A stretch of DNA of 6,597 nt from a virus (Duplodnaviria; Heunggongvirae; Uroviricota; Caudoviricetes): positions 1-6,597 of the IMG/VR virus record IMGVR_UViG_3300029071_000005. The stretch is one strand, 5' to 3'. The translations under genes and the position numbers were made by a program. Shown piece by piece: positions 1-5,761 of the stretch (position 1 is its first letter; every line of letters begins with the position of its first letter). The notes below the pieces were generated by a model, which saw only the letters and a program-made list of their open reading frames with translations, made no database searches and was not told the DNA's origin.

Positions 1-120
1 CGCCGCGCTCTGGAATTTTCGCCCCGCCGCGCTTATCAGGCTCTTACCAGCAAACGCCCCTTTGTTGGGGTGTCGCCAGTACGTGTTCACGCTGGGCGGA
101 AAAGGCAGGATCAGCTTCAT
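1..120 (-). CDS. rusA: RusA-like Holliday junction resolvase, N-terminal 40 codons only (gene runs off the window start)
   Basis: Minus-strand ATG at 120-118 overlaps the stop of the upstream gene (plus TCAT at 117-120 = ATGA on minus). Translation MKLILPFPPSVNTYWRHPNKGAFAGKSLISAAGRKFQSAA carries the LP-PPS-N-Y-RH N-terminal signature I recall for RusA-family resolvases. Partial, no stop within the window. Confidence 0.6.
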   Translation of the reverse strand, partial: MKLILPFPPSVNTYWRHPNKGAFAGKSLISAAGRKFQSAA

Positions 121-443
121 ACTTTCAGGTCCCTCTCATGTAACCAGTGGGTTGCACGCAGCCTTGCGTTTTCCTCACCGGCAAGCAGTGCGCGGATAAT
201 CCCGACTGCCTCGCTGTCGTCGTCCTTCACCGCGGTATGAAGCGTTATCCCCCGGGCCACACCACGCTTTATCGTGATGACGCCTTTTTTCTCCAGTGCG
301 CGAAGATGCTCCACCGCTGCATTCACTGAACGGTATCCCAGCATGGTTGCCACCTCCTGATTGGTTGGCGGGAAACCACGTTCTTTCTGATAAGAAATCA
401 GCATATCCAGCACCTGCTGCTGGCATTGAGTTAACGTCGTCAT
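117..443 (-). CDS. LexA-like DNA-binding domain protein lacking the S24 peptidase/dimerisation domain (108 aa)
   Basis: Track ORF 117..443. Residues 1-69 align without gaps to the E. coli LexA N-terminal winged-helix domain as I recall it (about half identical), with the recognition-helix segment SVNAAVEHLRALEKKG versus LexA SPNAAEEHLKALARKG. A hinge-like VGIIRALLAGEEN resembles LexA VGRVAAGEPLL, then the protein ends after about 25 more residues. ATGA overlaps at both ends (440-443 and 117-120). Confidence 0.75.
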   Translation of the reverse strand: MTTLTQCQQQVLDMLISYQKERGFPPTNQEVATMLGYRSVNAAVEHLRALEKKGVITIKRGVARGITLHTAVKDDDSEAVGIIRALLAGEENARLRATHWLHERDLKV

Positions 444-1093
444 GCCGCCATCTCCCTGACCAGTTTTTCCGCCTGCTGGCGAACCTGCGCCAGAAACGCC
501 TCACCACATGCCTCAAGTTCATCGCGCCCGATGTAGCTGATTGCCGGTCCCTTCCAGGTCTTATCGAAAACAGCAATAGCACCAGCGAAGAAAGCGCCTG
601 TCGGCACCTGCTTCTCATCCTTCGGGATAAACCAAGCAGGCAGTTCAAAACCAATACGCCCGCGAATAAAAGCAATATGATCCGCATCTTCCGGCCACCA
701 CACTTCGCTGGTGGCAGCTTTGATCAGGAAAACATAGCGCCCACCCTTATCACGCATGGCACTGGCATGTTTCATGATGTAACGCATGCCGGTGATGTAT
801 TGCCCCTCATGCTGACTGGCGCGGCTGTATGGGGGATTACCAAAGGCAGCCCCTTTAAGCTCCGCAAGACGTTCTGACCAGTCATGCGCCAGCGCGTTGT
901 CTTCCGCCGTGTAATACGCAGCACATTTGGCGTTATCACCGTCAGTGAACAGATCCAGAACAAACGGGCCAAACAGGGTGTTAATTCCCCAGAAAATGTT
1001 GTCCGGCGTGCGCCACTGATCACCCACTTCCTTCAGTTCATGGGCTGGTTTGTTCCGCAGTTCCACCAGCTCCTGGCAATATTTATTACTCAT
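440..1093 (-). CDS. Phage Dam-type DNA N6-adenine methyltransferase (orphan, no partner nuclease in window)
   Basis: Track ORF 440..1126. Contains the catalytic NPPY motif (GAAFGNPPYSRA) and the WRTPDNIFW...FVLDLFTDGDN N-terminal region typical of phage Dam-family methyltransferases. Start chosen at ATG 1093-1091 (MSNKY...) because it overlaps the upstream stop TAA 1095-1093 (TAATG); the alternative start at 1126 would give 228 aa. Confidence 0.85.
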   Translation of the reverse strand: MSNKYCQELVELRNKPAHELKEVGDQWRTPDNIFWGINTLFGPFVLDLFTDGDNAKCAAYYTAEDNALAHDWSERLAELKGAAFGNPPYSRASQHEGQYITGMRYIMKHASAMRDKGGRYVFLIKAATSEVWWPEDADHIAFIRGRIGFELPAWFIPKDEKQVPTGAFFAGAIAVFDKTWKGPAISYIGRDELEACGEAFLAQVRQQAEKLVREMAA

Positions 1094-1581
1094 TAAGCCC
1101 CCACGTAATTCCCTGACAGATACCACTCATCACCCGATACAGCGCGCTTGCTGCTTTTCCGTAAACACTGCTCACGACGCGCCAGAAAATTGTTTCGTTC
1201 TGGCTGGGAGTGGCTTTCACGGAATGCCGCCATCCACACCGTTGCAGCACGACGGTATAAGCCCCTGGACTCCAGTTCTTCCGCCTGGCGGGTCAGGCAC
1301 AAAATCACCCGGGGATCGTTAGTGCCGACATAGAAATTGCGCACAGGTCTGGTTTCACGAACTGGTTGTGGTTCCGGCTCCTGCGCTCTCTCAGTCAGGC
1401 GCGGGAAATGTCTGCGTGTATCCCCTTCACAACGGTGAGCCACACGCCCACTCTGACGTAACTTGCTTGCTGACTGCAGAACGCGCTGCCGTGAGTAACC
1501 TGCAAAAGCATCCGCAATGTCTCCGGAAGTACACCCCGGATGGGCTTCAATGAATTTCTGAACTTCATTCAAAAGACTCAT
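1093..1581 (-). CDS. Hypothetical regulator with PerC-like C-terminal motif and a possible N-terminal winged-helix region
   Basis: Track ORF 1093..1587. Motifs AEELESRGLYRRAATVWMAAF and RREQCLRK resemble the conserved core of PerC/Pch-family activators as I recall them. Start placed at ATG 1581-1579, 2 nt after the upstream TGA and 5-6 nt after an AGGGGG Shine-Dalgarno; GTG at 1587 is the alternative. Confidence 0.6.
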   Translation of the reverse strand: MSLLNEVQKFIEAHPGCTSGDIADAFAGYSRQRVLQSASKLRQSGRVAHRCEGDTRRHFPRLTERAQEPEPQPVRETRPVRNFYVGTNDPRVILCLTRQAEELESRGLYRRAATVWMAAFRESHSQPERNNFLARREQCLRKSSKRAVSGDEWYLSGNYVGA

Positions 1582-1583
1582 GA

Positions 1584-2402
1584 TCACCCCCTGAATCCTG
1601 CCGGGATCTGGCTGTAGTCCACGTTGTCGTAACTGGCTTTGAAGTACGGGTCCTCGCGTCTGGCTGCAGATACCGCAGGAACTTCCCAGGATTCTTCGAA
1701 ATGACGATCCGGACCAAAGAACGTGACAGCCTGTTTCACAAATTGTGTGCCGCTGTTACCCATCGCAGATACCCAGCCCGCGTAGCGTTTCACACCTTCC
1801 AGCATGGTTTCGGGTTTTACCCCCTCATTCAAACGGGCTTTCCAGGCTTTGAAGGCTGCAGATTTTGAATTGCCACCAGCACGTTTGGGGTATGCCAGCC
1901 ATGCCTGCTCAAACTCCGGAGAGTATTCCGGTCGGTTTGAACGAACTCGCACAGACTCATCAGCAGATGCACCAACAGCTATTGGTTCATTGACTGGTTC
2001 TTTGACTGGTTCAAAAGAGTGACTGGTTCTGGGTGAATCTCCTGCACCACCCCCTGGTGCAACTCCTGCACTACCTGGTGAATTTGCTGCACCAGATAGT
2101 GAATTATTTGCACTACCCCCTAGTGAATCTCCTGCACCATCAAGATGAAGGAGATAGATATTACTTGAGTTACCTTTTTCACCTTTCCGGGTGACTTTTT
2201 TTACCAGCCCGGAATCACAAAGGGCCGCAATATGATTCATCACAGAACGTTTGCTAATCTCGCACTGGTCAGCAATATGCTGGTAGCTGGGCCAGCACTC
2301 ACCCTGATCGCTGGCATTATCAGCCAGCTTGATCAGAACCAGTTTTCGCAATGGATTACCCACTCGAATTTTCATCGCTTTAACCATCAGCTCCATACTC
2401 AT
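1584..2402 (-). CDS. Phage replication initiator: N-terminal HTH domain, repetitive Gly/Ser/Ala/Pro linker, C-terminal replisome-organiser-like domain
   Basis: Track ORF 1584..2402. N-terminus KIRVGNPLRKLVLIKLADNASDQGECWPSYQHIADQCEISKRSVMNHIAALCDSGLV looks like the HTH module of phage replication initiators. C-terminal PEFEQAWLAYPKRAGGNSKSAAFKAWKARL matches the F-x-x-W-x-x-YPK...A...W motif I associate with phage replisome-organiser/DnaD-like domains. Start ATG 2402-2400 overlaps the upstream stop (ATGA). Confidence 0.8.
   Translation of the reverse strand: MSMELMVKAMKIRVGNPLRKLVLIKLADNASDQGECWPSYQHIADQCEISKRSVMNHIAALCDSGLVKKVTRKGEKGNSSNIYLLHLDGAGDSLGGSANNSLSGAANSPGSAGVAPGGGAGDSPRTSHSFEPVKEPVNEPIAVGASADESVRVRSNRPEYSPEFEQAWLAYPKRAGGNSKSAAFKAWKARLNEGVKPETMLEGVKRYAGWVSAMGNSGTQFVKQAVTFFGPDRHFEESWEVPAVSAARREDPYFKASYDNVDYSQIPAGFRG
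1991..2029. repeat. Three direct copies of TGACTGGTTC inside the replication-initiator gene
   Basis: TGACTGGTTC at 1991-2000, 2003-2012 and 2020-2029, with a degenerate TGGTTC at 1983-1988. Encodes a PVKEPVNEP stretch of the initiator. Confidence 0.6.
2032..2139. repeat. Five 18-bp iteron-like direct repeats (candidate origin of replication embedded in the initiator gene)
   Basis: GGTGAATCTCCTGCACCA 2032-2049, GGTGCAACTCCTGCACTA 2056-2073, GGTGAATTTGCTGCACCA 2077-2094, AGTGAATTATTTGCACTA 2099-2116, AGTGAATCTCCTGCACCA 2122-2139, spaced 21-24 bp apart. An AT-rich stretch follows at about 2140-2200. Same arrangement as lambda ori inside the O gene. Confidence 0.65.
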
Positions 2403-2623
2403 GCTGCACCTCCGAGATGCTTCATGTTTTTTCTGGAGCGAAAGGCTATAAGCGGCATACTGACGCGGTAATTACGGCCCAGCGGTTCACAAACCACCTT
2501 CTGACATTCACGGTCAACCAGGCTAACACGTAGAACATGCCCTGCAGGCGTGGTGTACCACTGACCCGGACGAGGACAACGGAAAGTCTGATTGGTAAAA
2601 CGTTTGAAAATATTCCGGATCAT
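2399..2623 (-). CDS. Hypothetical small protein (74 aa), possibly Cys-containing zinc-ribbon-like
   Basis: Track ORF 2399..2623. ATGA overlaps at both ends (2620-2623 and 2399-2402) link it to Rha and the replication gene. Contains the paired cysteines FRCPRPG...DRECQKVVCE. No family recognised. Confidence 0.5.
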   Translation of the reverse strand: MIRNIFKRFTNQTFRCPRPGQWYTTPAGHVLRVSLVDRECQKVVCEPLGRNYRVSMPLIAFRSRKNMKHLGGAA

Positions 2624-3165
2624 TTGCGCCCCCTTACCTCTGAAGGGTTCAGCGACAAATTTATGAGGCAGGCCAGCGCCGAAGCATCATTAATATAGTC
2701 ATATAAGCTAACAGCCAGCGGAGATTCGGCTTTTGCCAACATAGGATAAAGCTGCTGCAGCCAGACCTGATGAATTGATGAAATGTAGGAACAGAGAACG
2801 CTGGCGTTATGTGCAACGTCGCTCGGTACAGCGGGCCTTGAAAGCTGTTTCTCCATCTGGTTAAAGGCATTGATGTATGCCTCTTTGAACTGGGCAGCAC
2901 GTTTACCCGTGAAACCCATAGCAAGAAACGCAAAGCCGTCGCGGGTTATTTGATAGCAAGGTAGTTTGCGGCCTGTGCAATCGGTGTAATCACTCACCGA
3001 AAAATTGCGGGCAGTGAATGATGCGGAGCATTCAAGCGTGCGGATCTTTTTCAGTACATCGTCATGACGTTTGGAGAAGAAGTTGGCAACAGCCAGGGAT
3101 GAAGTAACAGCCTGACCATCAACGATGGCAATTTCAGGTTGAGTGAGGGTTGGGATCGTAGCCAT
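2620..3165 (-). CDS. Rha-family phage regulatory protein (181 aa as called)
   Basis: C-terminal 181 codons of track ORF 2620..3771. MATIPTLTQPEIAIVDGQAVTSSLAVANFFSKRHDDVLKKIRTLE...GRKLPCYQITRDGFAFLAMGFTGKRAAQFKEAYINAFNQME is a classic Rha N-terminal domain. Start chosen at ATG 3165-3163, preceded by AAAGAGG (GAGG 9 nt upstream). The frame stays open a further 202 codons upstream, so the true start is uncertain. Confidence 0.8.
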   Translation of the reverse strand: MATIPTLTQPEIAIVDGQAVTSSLAVANFFSKRHDDVLKKIRTLECSASFTARNFSVSDYTDCTGRKLPCYQITRDGFAFLAMGFTGKRAAQFKEAYINAFNQMEKQLSRPAVPSDVAHNASVLCSYISSIHQVWLQQLYPMLAKAESPLAVSLYDYINDASALACLINLSLNPSEVRGRK

Positions 3166-3333
3166 GATGGCAGCCTCTTTGGTGATTTTAAATAACTCAC
3201 CACCAAGGCTTTCCACGACCTTATTGGTGGTGAGACGTACAGGGGTGGAAATACCGGTCACCAAAGAACCCGGCCCAACCGAAGTTGGCCCTGCACGCCC
3301 CACCATAATTTGGGCGTAATGCTGCTCATGACA

Positions 3334-3357
3334 CAAAAAAACCGCAAGAGCGCGGTT
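3334..3357 (-). terminator. Candidate intrinsic terminator on the minus strand
   Basis: Minus-strand RNA AACCGC-GCUCUU-GCGGUU followed by UUUUUGUG (plus-strand A7 run at 3335-3341, arms 3340-3345 and 3352-3357). 6-bp stem, 6-nt loop, U-tract. Lies between the 59-aa ORF stop and the Rha start. Confidence 0.45.
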
Positions 3358-3442
3358 GTGCGCTTTGGTGAATTCCGGGTTTCCACGCCCGGCACCCGCT
3401 TTATAAGGTGCCTGAACAGTGTAACGTCCCGGAATGGCAGAA

Positions 3443-3622
3443 TCAATGTGCTGGTGGTCCTTCACACTCAACAAAATCACGCCTGAATTTCCACAAAGGA
3501 CTAAAGCACTCATGCGGGTAGTCTTTGCGAAGATAGATAACGCGCTGTGTTTCTGGCTCCCAACGAATAACATGAACATAAAGTCCTCTTCCGTCACGAA
3601 ACCAGCGGTTAAGTTCCTGCAC
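3443..3622 (-). CDS. Hypothetical 59-aa protein absent from the ORF track (GTG start, just under the 60-aa cutoff)
   Basis: Reading minus strand from GTG 3622-3620 to TGA 3445-3443 gives VQELNRWFRDGRGLYVHVIRWEPETQRVIYLRKDYPHECFSPLWKFRRDFVECEGPPAH, checked codon by codon. G-rich SD-like GGGGGG lies 6 nt upstream. It is out of frame with, and entirely inside, the N-terminal part of the 383-aa track ORF. No family recognised with confidence. Confidence 0.4.
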   Translation of the reverse strand: MQELNRWFRDGRGLYVHVIRWEPETQRVIYLRKDYPHECFSPLWKFRRDFVECEGPPAH

Positions 3623-3652
3623 AACTCGCCCCCCACAGTCAGGTAAAGTTCT

Positions 3653-3668
3653 CTGTGGTTACTTACAG
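3653..3668. promoter_or_regulatory. LexA (SOS) box core match CTGT-N8-ACAG
   Basis: CTGTGGTTACTTACAG at 3653-3668. It is the only exact CTGT-N8-ACAG I found in the window. Lies 31 bp upstream (minus strand) of the 59-aa ORF start, in the gap after the CII-like gene. The spacer is less AT-rich than strong chromosomal SOS boxes. Confidence 0.4.
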
Positions 3669-3767
3669 CCAGGTGATTTGGTAATCTGCATTCATGCCGT
3701 AACAACAGGTGTTCAGCCACGCGGACCACCAACTGTTGCGACCAACGGTTATTTGCCGTTAAACTGT

Positions 3768-4385
3768 TCATGCGTTAGTTTCTCCACAACCAGAAGCAAT
3801 CGACGCCACGACGCCCGGAGCTGCACACTCGCGGGCGTTACTCTTTTCCGGTGCACAAAAAACACGAAATAACAGTGTTAAATGCTCCTGCCACTTCGCC
3901 ATTACTTGGTAGCTGTTCTCTTCGATTTGCTCACGCTCAGCCTGGTCAATAACTCCATCAGCAGTTGCCTTGCGTAAGTACTGGGAATGCTTGCCAATCC
4001 ATTCTATTGACTCCATCAGCCGCTGATTAATGTCACCATTGCCAATGTCATCAATGACCACCAGCGGCACAAACACCCCATTACTACGACGGGCTATTGC
4101 ATCTGTTACATGCCTGGTACCACTGGCATCCTGTAAAACCATGGCCCACTCAAGTGGAAAAATTTGATCCCCACCGCTACGCAGTCTGTTATGCAATTGA
4201 TCTTTTGCTGGGGTGATATCATCAGATTTATACAAACCAAGAATTTCTGCTGCTTCCTCATAGCCATGAGGTAAATCAGCAATCGTTCTTCGTATTGCTG
4301 CCACCAGCCATGCTGGTTGTTTATCAACTTTCCATTCAGGTTCTTTACCCACGGCTATCTCCTTAAAACTGTGGTTACTTTCCAT
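3768..4385 (-). CDS. CII-like / YdaT-like early regulatory protein (205 aa)
   Basis: Track ORF 3768..4385. Second gene after cro-like, the position of cII. AAEILGLYKSDDITPAKDQLHNRLRSGGDQIFPLEWAMVL loosely parallels lambda CII AEAVGVDKSQISRWKRDWIPKFSMLLAVLEWGVV as I recall it. Start ATG 4385 overlaps the last 11 nt of the cro-like gene. Confidence 0.55.
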   Translation of the reverse strand: MESNHSFKEIAVGKEPEWKVDKQPAWLVAAIRRTIADLPHGYEEAAEILGLYKSDDITPAKDQLHNRLRSGGDQIFPLEWAMVLQDASGTRHVTDAIARRSNGVFVPLVVIDDIGNGDINQRLMESIEWIGKHSQYLRKATADGVIDQAEREQIEENSYQVMAKWQEHLTLLFRVFCAPEKSNARECAAPGVVASIASGCGETNA

Positions 4386-4623
4386 CTGATAAGTCTTTAA
4401 TCTTTTGAAAAATATCTGGACGTAATTTTTCTTTTGATACGCCAGTGGTCATTTCAATAAATATCGAGAGCTTTGCAGGGGGACGCTTTTCTCTGTTCAA
4501 CCAGTTCCAGACATGTTGTTGCTTTACTAAACGACCACTGCTGGCTGTGAGCTTCCGAGCCAATTCTGATTGACCACCAGCCAGAGCGATTGCCTCTGAT
4601 AAGGCTAATTGCTCAGGTGTCAT
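4375..4623 (-). CDS. Cro-like / YdaS-like HTH transcriptional regulator (82 aa)
   Basis: Track ORF 4375..4623. HTH segment GGQSELARKLTASSGRLVKQQHVWNWL. Transcribed divergently from the repressor; GGAG lies 6 nt upstream of the ATG; a TATAAT -10 lies upstream on the minus strand. Confidence 0.8.
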   Translation of the reverse strand: MTPEQLALSEAIALAGGQSELARKLTASSGRLVKQQHVWNWLNREKRPPAKLSIFIEMTTGVSKEKLRPDIFQKIKDLSDGK

Positions 4624-4647
4624 AGCTTTCTCCTATCTGTAAGTAGT

Positions 4648-4731
4648 AAAGTTGTTGATAACTTCGATTATACAACCACAACAACTTTTATCACAACTTT
4701 TAGATGTTGGAAAGCTAAAACATAAAGTTGT
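4648..4731. promoter_or_regulatory. OR-like operator region: four copies of the 8-9 bp motif AAAGTTGT/ACAACTTT, including an imperfect 16-bp palindrome
   Basis: AAAGTTGT at 4648-4655 and 4724-4731; ACAACTTTT at 4681-4689 and 4693-4701; palindrome AAGTTgttgatAACTT at 4649-4664. Sits between the divergent repressor and cro-like genes. Confidence 0.65.
4667..4696 (-). promoter_or_regulatory. Candidate pR-like sigma70 promoter for the cro-like operon
   Basis: On the minus strand: -35 TTGTGA (plus 4691-4696), 18-bp spacer, -10 TATAAT (plus 4667-4672), about 40 nt upstream of the cro-like ATG. Overlaps the operator repeats. Confidence 0.55.
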
Positions 4732-4760
4732 AACCTCAATAAAAACGAGGGGGATATGTT

Positions 4761-5447
4761 GTGAAAACATTGGCAGAAAGACTAAAAAGCGAAAGAGAAA
4801 AAGCAGGAATGAGTCAGGCGCAACTAGCTGAAAAAATTGGGCTTTCACAACAATCCGTAGCGAAAATCGAGAATGGAGAAACTCAACAGCCTCGGAAAAT
4901 TAAAGAGATTGCTAAAGTGTTAGGGGTTTCTCAAAAGTGGTTGCAATTGGGCATTGAGGATAACGCGTCTTTCCCAGACCTTGTTGTAAAGGAGGCTGAA
5001 AGTACAGCATTAGATCCTGACATTTTTGCAAACATTCCAGTCCTAGATGTCGAGTTATCAGCGGGTAATGGATGTTTGGCTGAAATAGTTGAATCAACTG
5101 TAGACTGGTTCCCGCTAAGAAGGATTGATTTAAGAAAAGCTGGTGTATGTGTCTCCAATGCAAAGATCGTAAAAATTTGGGGCAATAGTTTACTACCTGT
5201 ACTTAACAATGGAGATTTTGTTGCTGTTGATGTTTCCCAAACGGTTCCTATTCGTGATGGGGATCTTTATGCCATACGTGATGGCGTATTACTTAGAGTT
5301 AAAATATTGATCAATTTACCTGACGGTGGTCTGATTCTAAGAAGTTTCAATAAAGATGAGTATCCAGATGAAATACTCACCTTCGAAGATAGGCGTTCCA
5401 GAATTCACGTTATAGGTAGAGTATTCTGGTCATCGCGCACTTGGTAA
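4761..5447 (+). CDS. CI-like prophage repressor: N-terminal XRE-type HTH plus C-terminal S24 (LexA-like) autopeptidase domain
   Basis: Track ORF 4761..5447, GTG start 10 nt after GAGGGGG. HTH is MSQAQLAEKIGLSQQSVAKIENG. S24 signatures: candidate Ala-Gly cleavage site in LSAGNG, Ser motif WGNSLLPVLNNGDFVAVD (compare LexA GMSM...GDLLAV), Lys motif LLRVKIL (compare LexA VTVKRLK). Confidence 0.85.
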   Translation: MKTLAERLKSEREKAGMSQAQLAEKIGLSQQSVAKIENGETQQPRKIKEIAKVLGVSQKWLQLGIEDNASFPDLVVKEAESTALDPDIFANIPVLDVELSAGNGCLAEIVESTVDWFPLRRIDLRKAGVCVSNAKIVKIWGNSLLPVLNNGDFVAVDVSQTVPIRDGDLYAIRDGVLLRVKILINLPDGGLILRSFNKDEYPDEILTFEDRRSRIHVIGRVFWSSRTW

Positions 5448-5579: not shown

Positions 5580-5640
5580 ACAACCTCCTTTTTTGATAAC
5601 CCTTGCCCTCATTTCACATCCGTCAAAACCACATAAAGTT

Positions 5641-5690
5641 GTTGACAACAACCAAAACAACAACTAGATTACAACTTAAAGATGTTGCAG
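5641..5690. promoter_or_regulatory. OL-like operator block homologous to the OR-like region
   Basis: CATAAAGTTGT at 5641-5651 is identical to 4721-4731. TAAAGTTGTTGAcAAC resembles 4647-4663 (TAAAGTTGTTGAtAAC). ACAACT-type half-sites recur at 5667-5672 and 5680-5685. About 55-60 bp of shared sequence with indels relative to 4645-4710. Confidence 0.6.
5651..5679 (+). promoter_or_regulatory. Candidate pL-like sigma70 promoter, plus strand
   Basis: -35 TTGACA (5651-5656, perfect), 17-bp spacer, -10 TAGATT (5674-5679), embedded in the operator-like repeats. Would transcribe towards boxA and the ORF at 5830. Confidence 0.55.
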
Positions 5691-5761
5691 TAACGAACAG
5701 GTAGGACGCCCACGAAGTAGCCGCCCGGGGCATATGAAGTCCAGGATGATTCGTTAGCAAC

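What the first reader, a model, noticed from the sequence alone, without database searches (positions are those of the whole stretch)
1983..2200. Iteron array and AT-rich stretch embedded in the replication-initiator gene: probable origin
Five 18-bp direct repeats (consensus about RGTGAAYYTSCTGCACYA) recur with a 21-24 bp period at 2032-2139. Three to four TGACTGGTTC repeats flank them at 1983-2029, and an AT-rich stretch lies on the other side (about 2140-2200). All are inside the initiator ORF, where they encode the Gly/Ser/Ala/Pro-rich linker between its HTH domain and C-terminal domain. This is the same logic as ori-lambda inside gene O, here with a different initiator family and different iteron sequence. 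No helicase-loader gene (P or DnaC-like) follows; the next genes are the PerC-like and Dam genes.
Basis: partly seen in the sequence, partly recalled or inferred. Interest (0 to 1): 0.55.

Follow-up and report, generated by a model that had tools for sequence, protein, structure and literature searches.

The report
Phage replication origin inside initiator gene
The repeats are real and are most likely the replication origin of an E. coli lambda-like prophage, sitting inside its own initiator gene as in phage lambda; next to them is a short DNA box kept almost unchanged in related prophages of many bacteria, and its role is unknown.

Summary
There are five 18-bp quasi-palindromic repeats (GTGMA-N5-TKCAC cores) at 2032-2139, spaced 24/21/21/24 bp. 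Three exact TGACTGGTTC copies and one degenerate copy lie at 1979-2029. A moderately AT-rich, low-stability stretch lies at 2140-2185. All are inside the minus-strand initiator gene (1584-2402), mostly in the part that codes a predicted disordered linker.

The window matches known phages (2H10, SfV, Stx2c phages, mEp460, ST64B). Comparison supports the origin reading. Every relative fetched by its N-terminal peptide alone (80 of 80) has its own iteron array at the same place. Iteron class follows the recognition-helix sequence. Synonymous sites are free in the DNA-binding domain (codon identity 0.41) but nearly frozen from the first iteron onwards. Iteron number varies from 1 to 9 among near-identical initiators.

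New here: the TGACTGGTTC repeats belong to a near-invariant box, AGAAYCAGTCACTCTYYTGAAYCAGTCA. It abuts the last iteron across Gammaproteobacteria, whatever the iteron class, C-terminal domain or helicase partner. The DNA is conserved, not the peptide.

No helicase or loader gene follows here, nor anywhere in the annotation of phage 2H10; most relatives have one. Function is inferred, not shown. This is a new member of a known kind (oriλ-type), with one unexplained conserved element.

The parts
1584..2402 (-). Replication initiator gene (272 aa). It has an N-terminal winged-helix DNA-binding domain, a disordered linker and a C-terminal helical domain.
   Evidence: ORF. Pfam HTH_36 E = 2.8e-11, DnaD_N weak. 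PHROG phrog_270 'replication initiation protein' E = 1.5e-88. The gene is 100% identical to phage 2H10 and 98-99% identical to SfV, Stx2c phages and mEp460. AlphaFold domains. The N-terminal domain matches only generic winged helices, including the DnaD N-terminal domain 2v79.
2032..2139 (.). Array of five 18-bp iterons (2032-2049, 2056-2073, 2077-2094, 2098-2115, 2122-2139). Each is a quasi-palindrome GTGMA-N5-TKCAC. These are the proposed binding sites for dimers of the initiator's winged helix.
   Evidence: 0 of 200 shuffles. Synonymous-site conservation is 0.7-1.0 over aa 98-124. Iteron class follows the recognition-helix motif. Copy number ranges from 1 to 9 in near-identical genes.
2003..2030 (-). 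Conserved box AGAACCAGTCACTCTTTTGAACCAGTCA (coding strand). It is two GAACCAGTCA 10-mers 17 nt apart, directly abutting the last iteron.
   Evidence: It is present with few changes in all relatives. Codon identity given the same amino acid is 0.92, against 0.41 in the N-terminal domain, in 31 non-redundant genes fetched by N-terminal peptide only. Variant codons are almost all non-synonymous, and the first 10-mer is read in another frame in some intact genes. All 120 exact matches in viral contigs lie inside this gene family.
1979..2000 (-). Further 10-mer copies at a 12-nt period: GAACCAGTCA (1991-2000) and the degenerate GAACCAATAG (1979-1988).
   Evidence: Copy number is 2-4 among close relatives (PhiR63_1 has one more, EH0430 one fewer). 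There are 2-4 copies in 78 of 80 distant relatives. A mosaic breakpoint lies right after them in ST64B and PhiR49_2.
2140..2185 (.). Moderately AT-rich, low-stability stretch on the N-terminal side of the iterons. It codes the wing of the winged helix. It is a candidate unwinding region, not shown to be one.
   Evidence: GC is 0.367. Its 30-bp windows are among the least stable 5% of the window. Third codon positions of this segment are richer in AT than those of aa 1-65 in 29 of 32 relatives (Wilcoxon p = 4e-6). There is no synonymous-site sequence conservation.
1584..1930 (-). Coding region of the C-terminal domain (about aa 158-272). It is the proposed adaptor to the helicase-loading system. 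The last ~30 aa are a separately exchangeable tail.
   Evidence: pLDDT is about 90 for aa 160-240. Pfam has no hit. PHROG matches are to the C-terminal parts of 'replication initiation' and 'DnaD-like helicase loader' families. The same domain occurs on a gene annotated as phage replication protein O in Stx1_14040 and on PhiR49_2. In both it sits directly upstream of two genes annotated as DnaC/helicase-type replication proteins; Pfam supports IstB-like and DnaB-like for the clusters they belong to. The tail alone matches other initiators that lie next to PerC-like genes.

Best explanation
Window 1979-2185 is the vegetative replication origin of a lambdoid E. coli prophage (SfV / 2H10 / Stx2c-phage type). 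It is embedded in the gene of its own initiator.

Proposed mechanism:
1. The early rightward transcript runs leftwards in this window, from the cro side. It expresses the 272-aa initiator (inferred from gene order).
2. Dimers of its N-terminal winged helix bind the five quasi-palindromic iterons, GTGMA-N5-TKCAC. The iterons are spaced 21/24 bp, about two helical turns, and build an O-some-like complex (inferred from covariation, not shown).
3. The duplex opens next to the array. The more likely site is the conserved GAACCAGTCA-repeat box. It abuts the last iteron and occupies the position that the AT-rich region has in oriλ. The alternative is the AT-rich stretch on the other side. This step is the least certain.
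4. The C-terminal domain brings in the replicative helicase. In relatives this domain class sits upstream of a phage DnaC-like loader plus a DnaB-like helicase. This phage has neither, so it would use host DnaC-DnaB (inferred).

The DNA elements can sit inside a gene because they are translated into a disordered Gly/Ser/Ala/Pro linker whose sequence is free to vary.
For: The repeats are real and non-random.

The gene is a phage replication initiator by family and is annotated as such in SfV, ST64B, mEp460 and 2H10.

The architecture is family-wide. Twenty N-terminal clusters from phages and viral contigs and 80 of 80 prophages fetched by N-terminal peptide patterns only all have the same order: winged helix, then 3-7 iterons of their own class, then the box, then a variable C-terminal domain.

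Specificity covaries. Helix motif S(K/R)RSV(M/I)NH goes with GTGCA..TKCAC, SRSTVK with GGGGCAG..CTGCCCC, CSKSAVR with TATGCCA..TGGCAC, and DRSTVR with TGTAGGCCCAGAAAGCAC. Mantel r = 0.60, with 0 of 2000 permutations reaching it.

The constraint is on the DNA. Synonymous codon identity is 0.15-0.6 across aa 1-87 and 0.7-1.0 from the first iteron to the end of the box; it is 0.41 against 0.92 in the summary measure. About 23% of iteron spacings in relatives are 22 or 23 nt, so the same DNA repeat is translated in different frames (examples). Inverted iteron copies occur within the Pseudomonas arrays, seen by reading the sequences printed.

Copy number varies by whole units, with 1, 2, 5, 7, 8 or 9 iterons in initiators otherwise identical apart from a few substitutions. 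The mode is 5.

The region is a predicted disordered linker.

Phage 2H10, a complete phage genome record, has the identical gene and no annotated helicase, loader or primase gene among its 58 genes.

The same inference is standard for other lambdoid initiators: λ O, P22 gene 18 and L gene 18 each have their own iterons inside the gene (PMC8022706; PMC7466680).
Against: There is no experimental evidence for binding, unwinding or autonomous replication for any member of this family. I found no paper on it.

Covariation of helix and iteron is partly expected from linkage alone, because the two are only about 100 nt apart.

Neither flank is strongly AT-rich: 63% AT at 2140-2185 and about 57-60% in the box.

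No DnaA boxes or IHF sites mark the region.

No small plasmids use this gene as their only replicon. The plasmid-database hits are about 40-kb phage-like records or large records.

Variants with one or two iterons are common (the 250-aa form is on 64 contigs). Either few iterons suffice or many of these prophages are defective.
Confidence: 0.78

Rival explanations
1. The iterons are initiator-binding sites, but they serve autoregulation, copy control or exclusion (titration or handcuffing, as with plasmid iterons or the λ 'inhibition phenotype'). Replication actually starts elsewhere in the phage.
For: Binding sites inside a gene could block or tune its own transcription. Plasmid iterons have both roles (own knowledge). 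λ ori iterons on plasmids cause a replication-inhibition phenotype (PMC3349717, listed). No strongly AT-rich unwinding element is present.
Against: The arrangement is the same as in proven origins of other lambdoid initiators. The array is always joined to the conserved box, whatever the promoter context. No promoter-like site lies in 1400-2800. No other repeat array was reported: Tandem Repeats Finder over the whole window gave only two other low-scoring short repeats.
Confidence: 0.1
2. The conserved box is not an origin element. It is kept either as a short linear peptide motif (PRTSHSFEPV.EP) that binds a host protein, or as a conserved 'linker' sequence where homologous recombination swaps N-terminal and C-terminal modules.
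For: The box lies exactly at the junction between the N-terminal+iteron module and the exchangeable C-terminal modules. Mosaic breakpoints fall right after it in ST64B and PhiR49_2. The same C-terminal class is joined to at least five iteron classes, and the window's iteron class is joined to more than one C-terminal class. The peptide is also well conserved in most members.
Against: The peptide reading is contradicted. Codons are identical far beyond what the protein needs (0.92 against 0.41). The changes that do occur are almost all non-synonymous. In intact genes the first 10-mer is read in another frame, giving PEPVTLEPV.

The pure recombination-linker reading does not explain three features: the internal direct-repeat structure, the amplification to 2-4 copies at a 12-nt period, and the fixed contact with the last iteron. 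Recombination at the box may simply be a consequence of its conservation.
Confidence: 0.1
3. The repeats are only a by-product of a low-complexity, slippage-prone linker, and have no function as DNA.
For: All five iterons are in one reading frame in this window, giving a G-[AS]-A-x-x-S-[LP] peptide repeat. Copy number changes by slippage-like unit steps. The region is disordered.
Against: Synonymous sites are nearly frozen in the linker but free in the folded domain, the opposite of what a neutral linker predicts. Out-of-frame and inverted copies in relatives keep the DNA but change the peptide (sequences printed). Different subfamilies have entirely different repeats with the same length, dyad symmetry and spacing.
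Confidence: 0.02

Closest known systems
oriλ inside gene O of phage λ, and the six-iteron origins of Stx phages 933W and P27
   Same: The origin lies in the middle of the initiator gene, in the linker between an N-terminal DNA-binding domain and a C-terminal recruiting domain. It has 4-6 direct repeats of about 18-20 bp with internal dyad symmetry, spaced about two helical turns. Iteron number varies between relatives (PMC7466680). The gene sits in the same place in the early right operon, after cro and cII.
   Different: The initiator has no Phage_rep_O match; it is an HTH_36 protein. The iteron sequence differs. λ has a strongly AT-rich tract on the 3' side of its iterons in the direction of the gene (own knowledge). 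Here that position holds the GAACCAGTCA box, and the only AT-rich stretch is on the 5' side. No P-type loader gene follows.
Predicted origins in P22 gene 18 and phage L gene 18
   Same: Distantly related or unrelated initiators each carry their own iterons within their coding region. The origin is inferred from repeats plus genetics of the module (PMC8022706).
   Different: P22 gene 18 is followed by a DnaB-type helicase gene, and L gene 12 is inferred by homology to be one too (PMC8022706). That paper mentions no conserved box shared across iteron classes.
Iteron origins of theta plasmids (RK2, F, pPS10, R6K, P1), with 13-mer repeats in the unwinding element that Rep proteins bind as single strands
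   Same: An iteron array lies directly next to a short element made of about 12-13-nt periodic repeats. The initiator is built from winged helices. Dimers bind palindromic sites. (Own knowledge of Rep-DUE work; general background in the review PMC5043065, listed but not read.)
   Different: There are no DnaA boxes. The periodic repeats here are not AT-rich. The origin is inside the rep gene rather than upstream of it. No plasmid in PLSDB uses this gene as its sole replicon.
'Eru' replication-region types of non-lambdoid Stx phages (Llarena 2021, Fagerlund 2022)
   Same: The window has what those papers describe for types with a Rha-family gene and an HTH_36 protein near cI (PMC8951638). The same initiator is found in many Stx2c, Stx2a and Stx2k phages.
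   Different: Those papers classify gene content only. They do not mention iterons, repeats or an origin (0 occurrences). I did not align the window to their type sequences.

Membership tests
oriλ-type phage origin (iterons inside the initiator gene) | Several direct repeats of about 18-20 bp with internal dyad symmetry in the central part of the initiator gene | tested here: met
   Five copies at 2032-2139, with core GTGMA-N5-TKCAC; 0 of 200 shuffles.
oriλ-type phage origin (iterons inside the initiator gene) | Repeats lie between an N-terminal DNA-binding domain and a C-terminal domain, in a flexible linker | tested here: met
   HTH_36 at aa 17-67. pLDDT is below 50 for aa 91-157, between two confident domains.
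oriλ-type phage origin (iterons inside the initiator gene) | Strongly AT-rich unwinding tract directly next to the iterons | tested here: inconclusive
   2140-2185 is 63% AT and among the least stable 5% of 30-bp windows. It lies on the opposite side from λ and has no sequence constraint. The λ-equivalent side holds the box, at about 57-60% AT.
oriλ-type phage origin (iterons inside the initiator gene) | The initiator binds the iterons specifically | not testable with these tools
   There is only indirect support: iteron class follows the recognition-helix motif (Mantel r = 0.60).
oriλ-type phage origin (iterons inside the initiator gene) | The fragment replicates autonomously when the initiator is supplied | not testable with these tools
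   No experiment was possible. No small natural plasmid with this gene is in PLSDB.
λ O protein family (Pfam Phage_rep_O) with a P-type helicase loader | The initiator matches Phage_rep_O | tested here: not met
   The Pfam scan at E <= 0.01 gives HTH_36, DnaD_N (weak), B-block_TFIIIC and HTH_20 only. PHROG names such as 'O-like' are annotations.
λ O protein family (Pfam Phage_rep_O) with a P-type helicase loader | A loader or helicase gene lies directly downstream of the initiator | tested here: not met
   Downstream are PerC-like, Dam and LexA-DBD genes. None of the 58 annotated genes of phage 2H10 is a helicase, loader or primase. Among the 39 compared relatives, 32 have as next gene a DnaC/IstB-like (14), λ-P-like (11) or Toprim primase-helicase (3) gene, or a DnaB-like helicase one or two genes downstream.
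Iteron-type theta plasmid origin | DnaA box(es) next to the iterons or unwinding element | tested here: not met
   TTWTNCACA with up to 1 mismatch gives 14 matches against 15 expected. The only one in the region (2175-2183) has a mismatch.
Iteron-type theta plasmid origin | Periodic 13-mer-like repeats in an AT-rich unwinding element next to the iterons | tested here: inconclusive
   There are 10-mers at 12- and 17-nt spacing abutting the last iteron, with 2-4 copies in relatives. They are not AT-rich, and unwinding was not tested.
HTH_36-type phage replication initiators (PHROG 270 and relatives) | Significant match to the family profile over most of the protein | tested here: met
   phrog_270 E = 1.5e-88 over aa 3-271. 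There are 5583 protein clusters at E <= 1e-10.
Eru-type Stx-phage replication region with Rha and HTH_36 genes (described as Eru6 in PMC8951638) | A Rha-family gene and an HTH_36 protein gene lie next to cI, with no O/P genes | tested here: inconclusive
   The gene content fits, and the initiator is found in Stx phages. The window was not aligned to the paper's reference sequences.

The most novel reading that the evidence does not exclude
The GAAYCAGTCA-repeat box is a previously undescribed, sequence-specific core element of a very large class of prophage origins; the initiator family has 5583 protein clusters. It is shared from Escherichia to Pseudomonas, Vibrio, Shewanella and Cardiobacteriaceae. 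It is read either by the conserved part of the initiator (possibly as single-stranded DNA, as plasmid Rep proteins read their 13-mers) or by a host factor common to Gammaproteobacteria. It would be the actual site of opening and helicase entry. It would work with as little as one iteron and with any helicase system: DnaC-type, λ-P-type, gp4-type or host only.
Probability: 0.35. Interest if true: 0.6.

Novelty: new member of a known kind. Interest (0 to 1): 0.42.

Why it matters
This initiator type drives replication of many Shiga-toxin phages (Stx2c, Stx2a, Stx2k), of serotype-converting SfV and of Salmonella ST64B. Toxin output depends on phage replication. The papers that classify these 'non-lambdoid' replication regions list genes but no origin.

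Placing the origin at 1979-2185 gives a defined target for replication and incompatibility studies, and for ori-plasmid tools. The helix-to-iteron table is a ready-made natural data set on winged-helix specificity.

The invariant box is a testable candidate for a common step in origin opening across thousands of prophages. It also explains where the N-terminal and C-terminal modules of these initiators are exchanged.

Tried and rejected
1. My first reading gave iteron spacings of 24/21/22/23, with copy 4 out of frame. That was a counting error. One search gives 24/21/21/24, all in frame in this window. Out-of-frame copies exist only in relatives.

2. The first codon-identity test was circular, because those loci had been fetched by an exact search for the box. 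I repeated it on loci fetched by N-terminal peptide patterns only.

3. DnaA boxes and the IHF consensus show no enrichment and no convincing site in the region.

4. No sigma-70 promoter-like site lies in 1400-2800. One terminator-like hairpin on the antisense strand at 2179-2194 is within chance expectation.

5. Rfam finds no RNA family in the origin region.

6. I considered a -1 frameshift at TCT TTT G in the box, with an immediate UGA that would give an N-terminal-only protein. I dropped it because the T run is not conserved; TCT, CTT and TTA variants occur.

7. A search for natural mini-replicons in PLSDB found only about 40-kb phage-like records or large records.

8. A sequence search of solved structures found no relative. 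Foldseek against PDB matched only generic winged helices for the N-terminal domain and gave nothing for the C-terminal domain.

9. Literature searches for the box sequence, the peptide, and iterons in this family found nothing relevant. The review by Weigel and Seitz (2006), which from memory describes phage replication modules including initiator-only modules, is not held.
Full report
**What the window is**

The 6.6-kb window is the immunity and early-right region of a lambdoid E. coli prophage. Its early genes run on the minus strand. The parts are:
- a cI-like repressor at 4761-5447 (+);
- a cro/YdaS-like gene at 4375-4623 (-);
- a CII-like gene at 3768-4385 (-);
- a Rha/Ash-type gene within 2620-3771 (-);
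- a small ORF at 2399-2623 (-);
- the initiator at 1584-2402 (-);
- a PerC-like gene at 1093-1587 (-);
- Dam at 440-1126 (-);
- a LexA-DNA-binding-domain protein at 117-443 (-).

The initiator gene is 100% identical to that of Escherichia phage 2H10. It is 98-99% identical to those of SfV, mEp460, 1720a-02 and many Stx2c/Stx2a/Stx2k phages. It is 88.5% identical to that of Salmonella phage ST64B. Its protein has a Pfam HTH_36 domain and matches PHROG 270, 'replication initiation protein', at E = 1.5e-88. The gene is therefore known and annotated. The question is whether the repeats inside it are an origin.

**The observation**

- Five copies of the 18-bp repeat lie at 2032, 2056, 2077, 2098 and 2122. 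There are 6 matches in the window against 0.11 expected, and none of 200 shuffles reached 6.
- Each copy is a quasi-palindrome, GTGMA-N5-TKCAC.
- Spacing is 24/21/21/24 bp, so in this window all copies are in one reading frame.
- TGACTGGTTC occurs exactly at 1991, 2003 and 2020. A degenerate copy lies at 1979-1988. The 2020 copy is in a different frame from the other two.
- The stretch 2140-2185 is 63% AT. It falls in the least stable 5% of 30-bp windows.
- In an AlphaFold model, aa 1-88 form a confident winged helix, aa 91-157 have pLDDT near 30, and aa 160-240 form a confident helical domain. The iterons and 10-mers code aa 89-141, so nearly all of them lie in the low-confidence linker.

**Close relatives**

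An alignment of seven close relatives shows unit-wise changes.
- Phage cdtI has eight iterons, through a 66-bp duplication.
- PhiR63_1 has one extra 12-nt GAACCAGTCAAA unit, and Stx2c_EH0430 has one fewer.
- Among 51 distinct gene sequences of this cluster in viral contigs, 48 have five iterons, two have four by the strict pattern and one has seven. There are two to four 10-mers.
- In the protein database, initiators otherwise identical apart from a few substitutions have 1, 2, 5, 7, 8 or 9 iteron-coded units. The five-unit form is by far the commonest (2852 member sequences). One rare form has lost the last iteron together with the box.
- In ST64B and PhiR49_2 the N-terminal domain, iterons and 10-mers stay highly conserved. 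The sequence diverges sharply right after the 10-mers. The DNA-binding domain and the repeats are therefore inherited as one unit.

**Distant relatives**

I fetched homologues of the protein from annotated phages: Vibrio D160, D59 and 381E49-1, Stx phage 24B 'O', Stx2_EH2085, Salmonella SI8 and S107, and Klebsiella ST15-VIM1phi2.1. Each has, at the same place, its own array of about 18-bp quasi-palindromic repeats with 21-24-bp spacing. The repeat sequence differs from the window's. Copy number runs from one in SI8 to seven in EH2085.

In every case the array is followed directly by nearly the same 28 bases, AGAACCAGTCACTCTTTTGAACCAGTCA. These contain the window's TGACTGGTTC repeats on the other strand.

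All lie inside genes of this family, in the same position.

More remote initiators keep the plan with a degenerate box, read from the sequences printed (loci):
- Psychrobacter phage Y8A has GAACCTATCAAT three times.
- Pseudomonas phage MD8 has four GAACC units at an 11-12-nt period.
- Vibrio 236O40-1 has two GAACCAGT units only 15 nt apart.

**An unbiased sample**

The box search makes any conservation test on those loci circular. I therefore drew a second sample from one genome per species, using only two peptide patterns of the N-terminal domain. The 80 best loci come from Pseudomonas, Aeromonas, Shewanella, Marinomonas, Microbulbifer, many Enterobacterales, Wohlfahrtiimonas, Zymobacter, Cellvibrio and Cardiobacteriaceae.
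- All 80 have an iteron array followed by 10-mer repeats. An automatic count finds 3-7 iterons and 2-4 10-mers in 78. The other two were checked by eye.
- In 31 non-redundant genes (below 80% nucleotide identity in the first 198 nt), the chance that two genes use the same codon, given the same amino acid, is 0.41 in the winged helix and 0.92 in the box.
- A column-by-column profile shows the baseline (0.15-0.6) holding through aa 87, including the AT-rich wing-coding stretch. It then jumps to 0.7-1.0 from the first iteron to the end of the box.
- Variant codons in the box are almost all non-synonymous: T to I, F to S, R to G, P to S. Only one of the nine core codons shows synonymous variants.
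- In several intact genes the two 10-mers are 15 nt apart instead of 17. The first is then translated as PEPVT rather than RTSH.
- For the iterons, 23% of 288 spacings are 22 or 23 nt. The same DNA repeat is then read in different frames, for example PMPSDGT against GVCHEIA, or GAGDSP against VVQEIHQ.
- Some arrays contain inverted copies, seen by reading the sequences printed.

The conserved entity is therefore the DNA, not the peptide.

**Link to the protein**

Grouping 192 genes by aa 45-64, the recognition helix, gives a consistent pairing with the proximal iteron:
- S(K/R)RSV(M/I)NH with TRGTGCAGGAGMTKCACC;
- SRSTVK, GRSTVK and ARSTVK with TGGGGCAGGAGCTGCCCC-like sites;
- CSKSAVR with TATGCCA-N5-TGGCAC;
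- DRSTVR with TGTAGGCCCAGAAAGCAC;
- TRRSAI with TAGTGAAAATATTTCACC.

A Mantel test on 102 distinct pairs gives r = 0.60, with 0 of 2000 permutations as high. Part of this is expected from linkage. The stronger argument is the pattern itself: all copies within an array are alike, arrays differ between subfamilies, and length, symmetry and spacing stay constant. That is what binding sites of a co-evolving dimeric protein look like.

**Helicase recruitment**

The C-terminal domain and the downstream genes are exchangeable modules. Among 40 compared loci, the gene after the initiator was classified by Pfam on cluster representatives. It is:
- a DnaC/IstB-like ATPase in 14, often followed by a DnaB-like helicase;
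- a λ-P-like protein in 11;
- a Toprim primase-helicase in three;
- a DnaB-like helicase directly in one;
- something else in the rest.

The window's C-terminal class is a broad BLAST cluster. In seven relatives it is followed by a DnaC-like gene, and in six of those by a DnaB-like gene as well.

The window, one Leclercia prophage and the cdtI, SfV and 2H10 phages have no loader or helicase gene there. The annotated 2H10 genome has none among its 58 genes. By inference this phage relies on host DnaC-DnaB. That is not shown. The last ~30 residues form a separate mosaic piece that travels with the PerC-like gene.

**Which flank opens**

In λ the AT-rich tract follows the iterons in the direction of gene O (own knowledge; general layout in PMC7466680). 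Here that position is taken by the box.
- The box is only about 57-60% AT. It is richer in AT than the gene average in 17-20 of 20 clusters. It is always in contact with the last iteron.
- A gene annotated as replication protein O in Stx1_14040 has 12-nt-period repeats (CAGAGAATAC-like) after what look like its own iterons, judged by eye. Periodic short repeats beside iterons may therefore not be unique to this family.
- The AT-rich stretch on the other side (2140-2185) has no sequence constraint. It does show an AT bias at third codon positions in 29 of 32 relatives. This could reflect selection for easy melting, or codon preferences of its Lys/Asn-rich peptide.

I favour the box as the core of the origin, with low confidence.

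**What is known and what is new**

Inferring an origin from iterons inside a lambdoid initiator gene is established practice. [quoted passage not shown] The λ-type Stx origins have been studied biochemically (PMC7466680).

For the HTH_36-type initiators I found no description of iterons or an origin. The two papers that define the 'Eru' replication types of Stx phages do not mention them. Neither the box sequence nor its peptide appears in a relevant paper.

The family-wide box is the one element I cannot place in any known scheme.

**Limits**

Everything about function is inferred from sequence comparison. No binding, unwinding or replication data exist for this family in what I could search. 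The two samples are dominated by prophages, some of which are defective; four of the 80 genes are frameshifted.

Noticed in passing
window 3223-3310 (-) and 3335-3411 (-): Rfam finds a C4 antisense RNA (83.6 bits) and an isrK Hfq-binding sRNA (67 bits) inside the long mechanical ORF 2620-3771(-). The 5' third of that 'Rha/Ash' ORF is therefore probably not coding. The layout resembles the P1/P7 c4-ant or Gifsy isrK-antirepressor modules (resemblance from own knowledge). The real Rha-type gene would start further down (Pfam hits only at aa 117-308).
   Followed up: partly
window 1584-1680 (aa 242-272 of the initiator) and the PerC-like gene 1093-1587: The last ~30 residues of the initiator match, on their own, the ends of otherwise different initiators. 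Where the hit rows list the neighbouring feature, it is a PerC/YfdN-like gene. A mosaic junction therefore lies inside the 3' end of the initiator gene. Phage cdtI keeps the tail but lacks the PerC-like gene.
   Followed up: partly
L015 1451-1495 (Stx1a phage Stx1_14040, gene annotated as phage replication protein O): Four CAGAGAATAC-like units lie at a 12-nt period directly after what look like the gene's own iterons, judged by eye. This gene carries the same C-terminal domain class as the window's initiator (72.5% identity over aa 142-250) and is followed by two genes annotated as helicase/replication proteins.
   Followed up: partly
proteins P0158, P0146 and P0153 (E. coli variants of the window's initiator); L006 (Salmonella phage SI8): Among near-identical initiators, one form has a single iteron unit (242 aa) and one has two (250 aa, seen on 64 contigs). 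One form has lost the last iteron plus the whole box (247 aa). Salmonella phage SI8, an annotated complete phage genome from irrigation water, has one iteron plus the box. Whether these forms are functional is unknown.
   Followed up: no
L139 (Vibrio phage 236O40-1) and Pseudomonas prophages L143, L146, L148: The window's iteron in its + strand form (GGTGAATCTCCTGCAC) appears on the coding strand of these genes, so it is inverted relative to the gene. In Pseudomonas both orientations occur within one array. This fits a dimer site with two slightly different half-sites, GTGCA and GTGAA (seen by reading the sequences).
   Followed up: no
window 4640-4745 and 5630-5695: On either side of the cI-like gene there are similar clusters of short repeats (AAAGTTGT / ACAACTT / AGATGTTG). 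They look like two operator regions, OR-like between cI and cro and OL-like beyond cI. This was seen by reading the sequence only.
   Followed up: no
window 2179-2194 (+): A terminator-like hairpin, TCACCTTTCCGGGTGA, followed by a T run lies on the strand antisense to the initiator gene, inside the AT-rich stretch. One such site is within chance expectation for the region (1 found, 1.3 expected).
   Followed up: no
L153, L189, L205, L214 (genome loci): Four of the 80 prophage initiator genes are frameshifted within the iteron array. They terminate in or just after the box, which then reads PEPVTLLNQ-stop. The repeat array seems to be a hot spot for inactivating indels.
   Followed up: no
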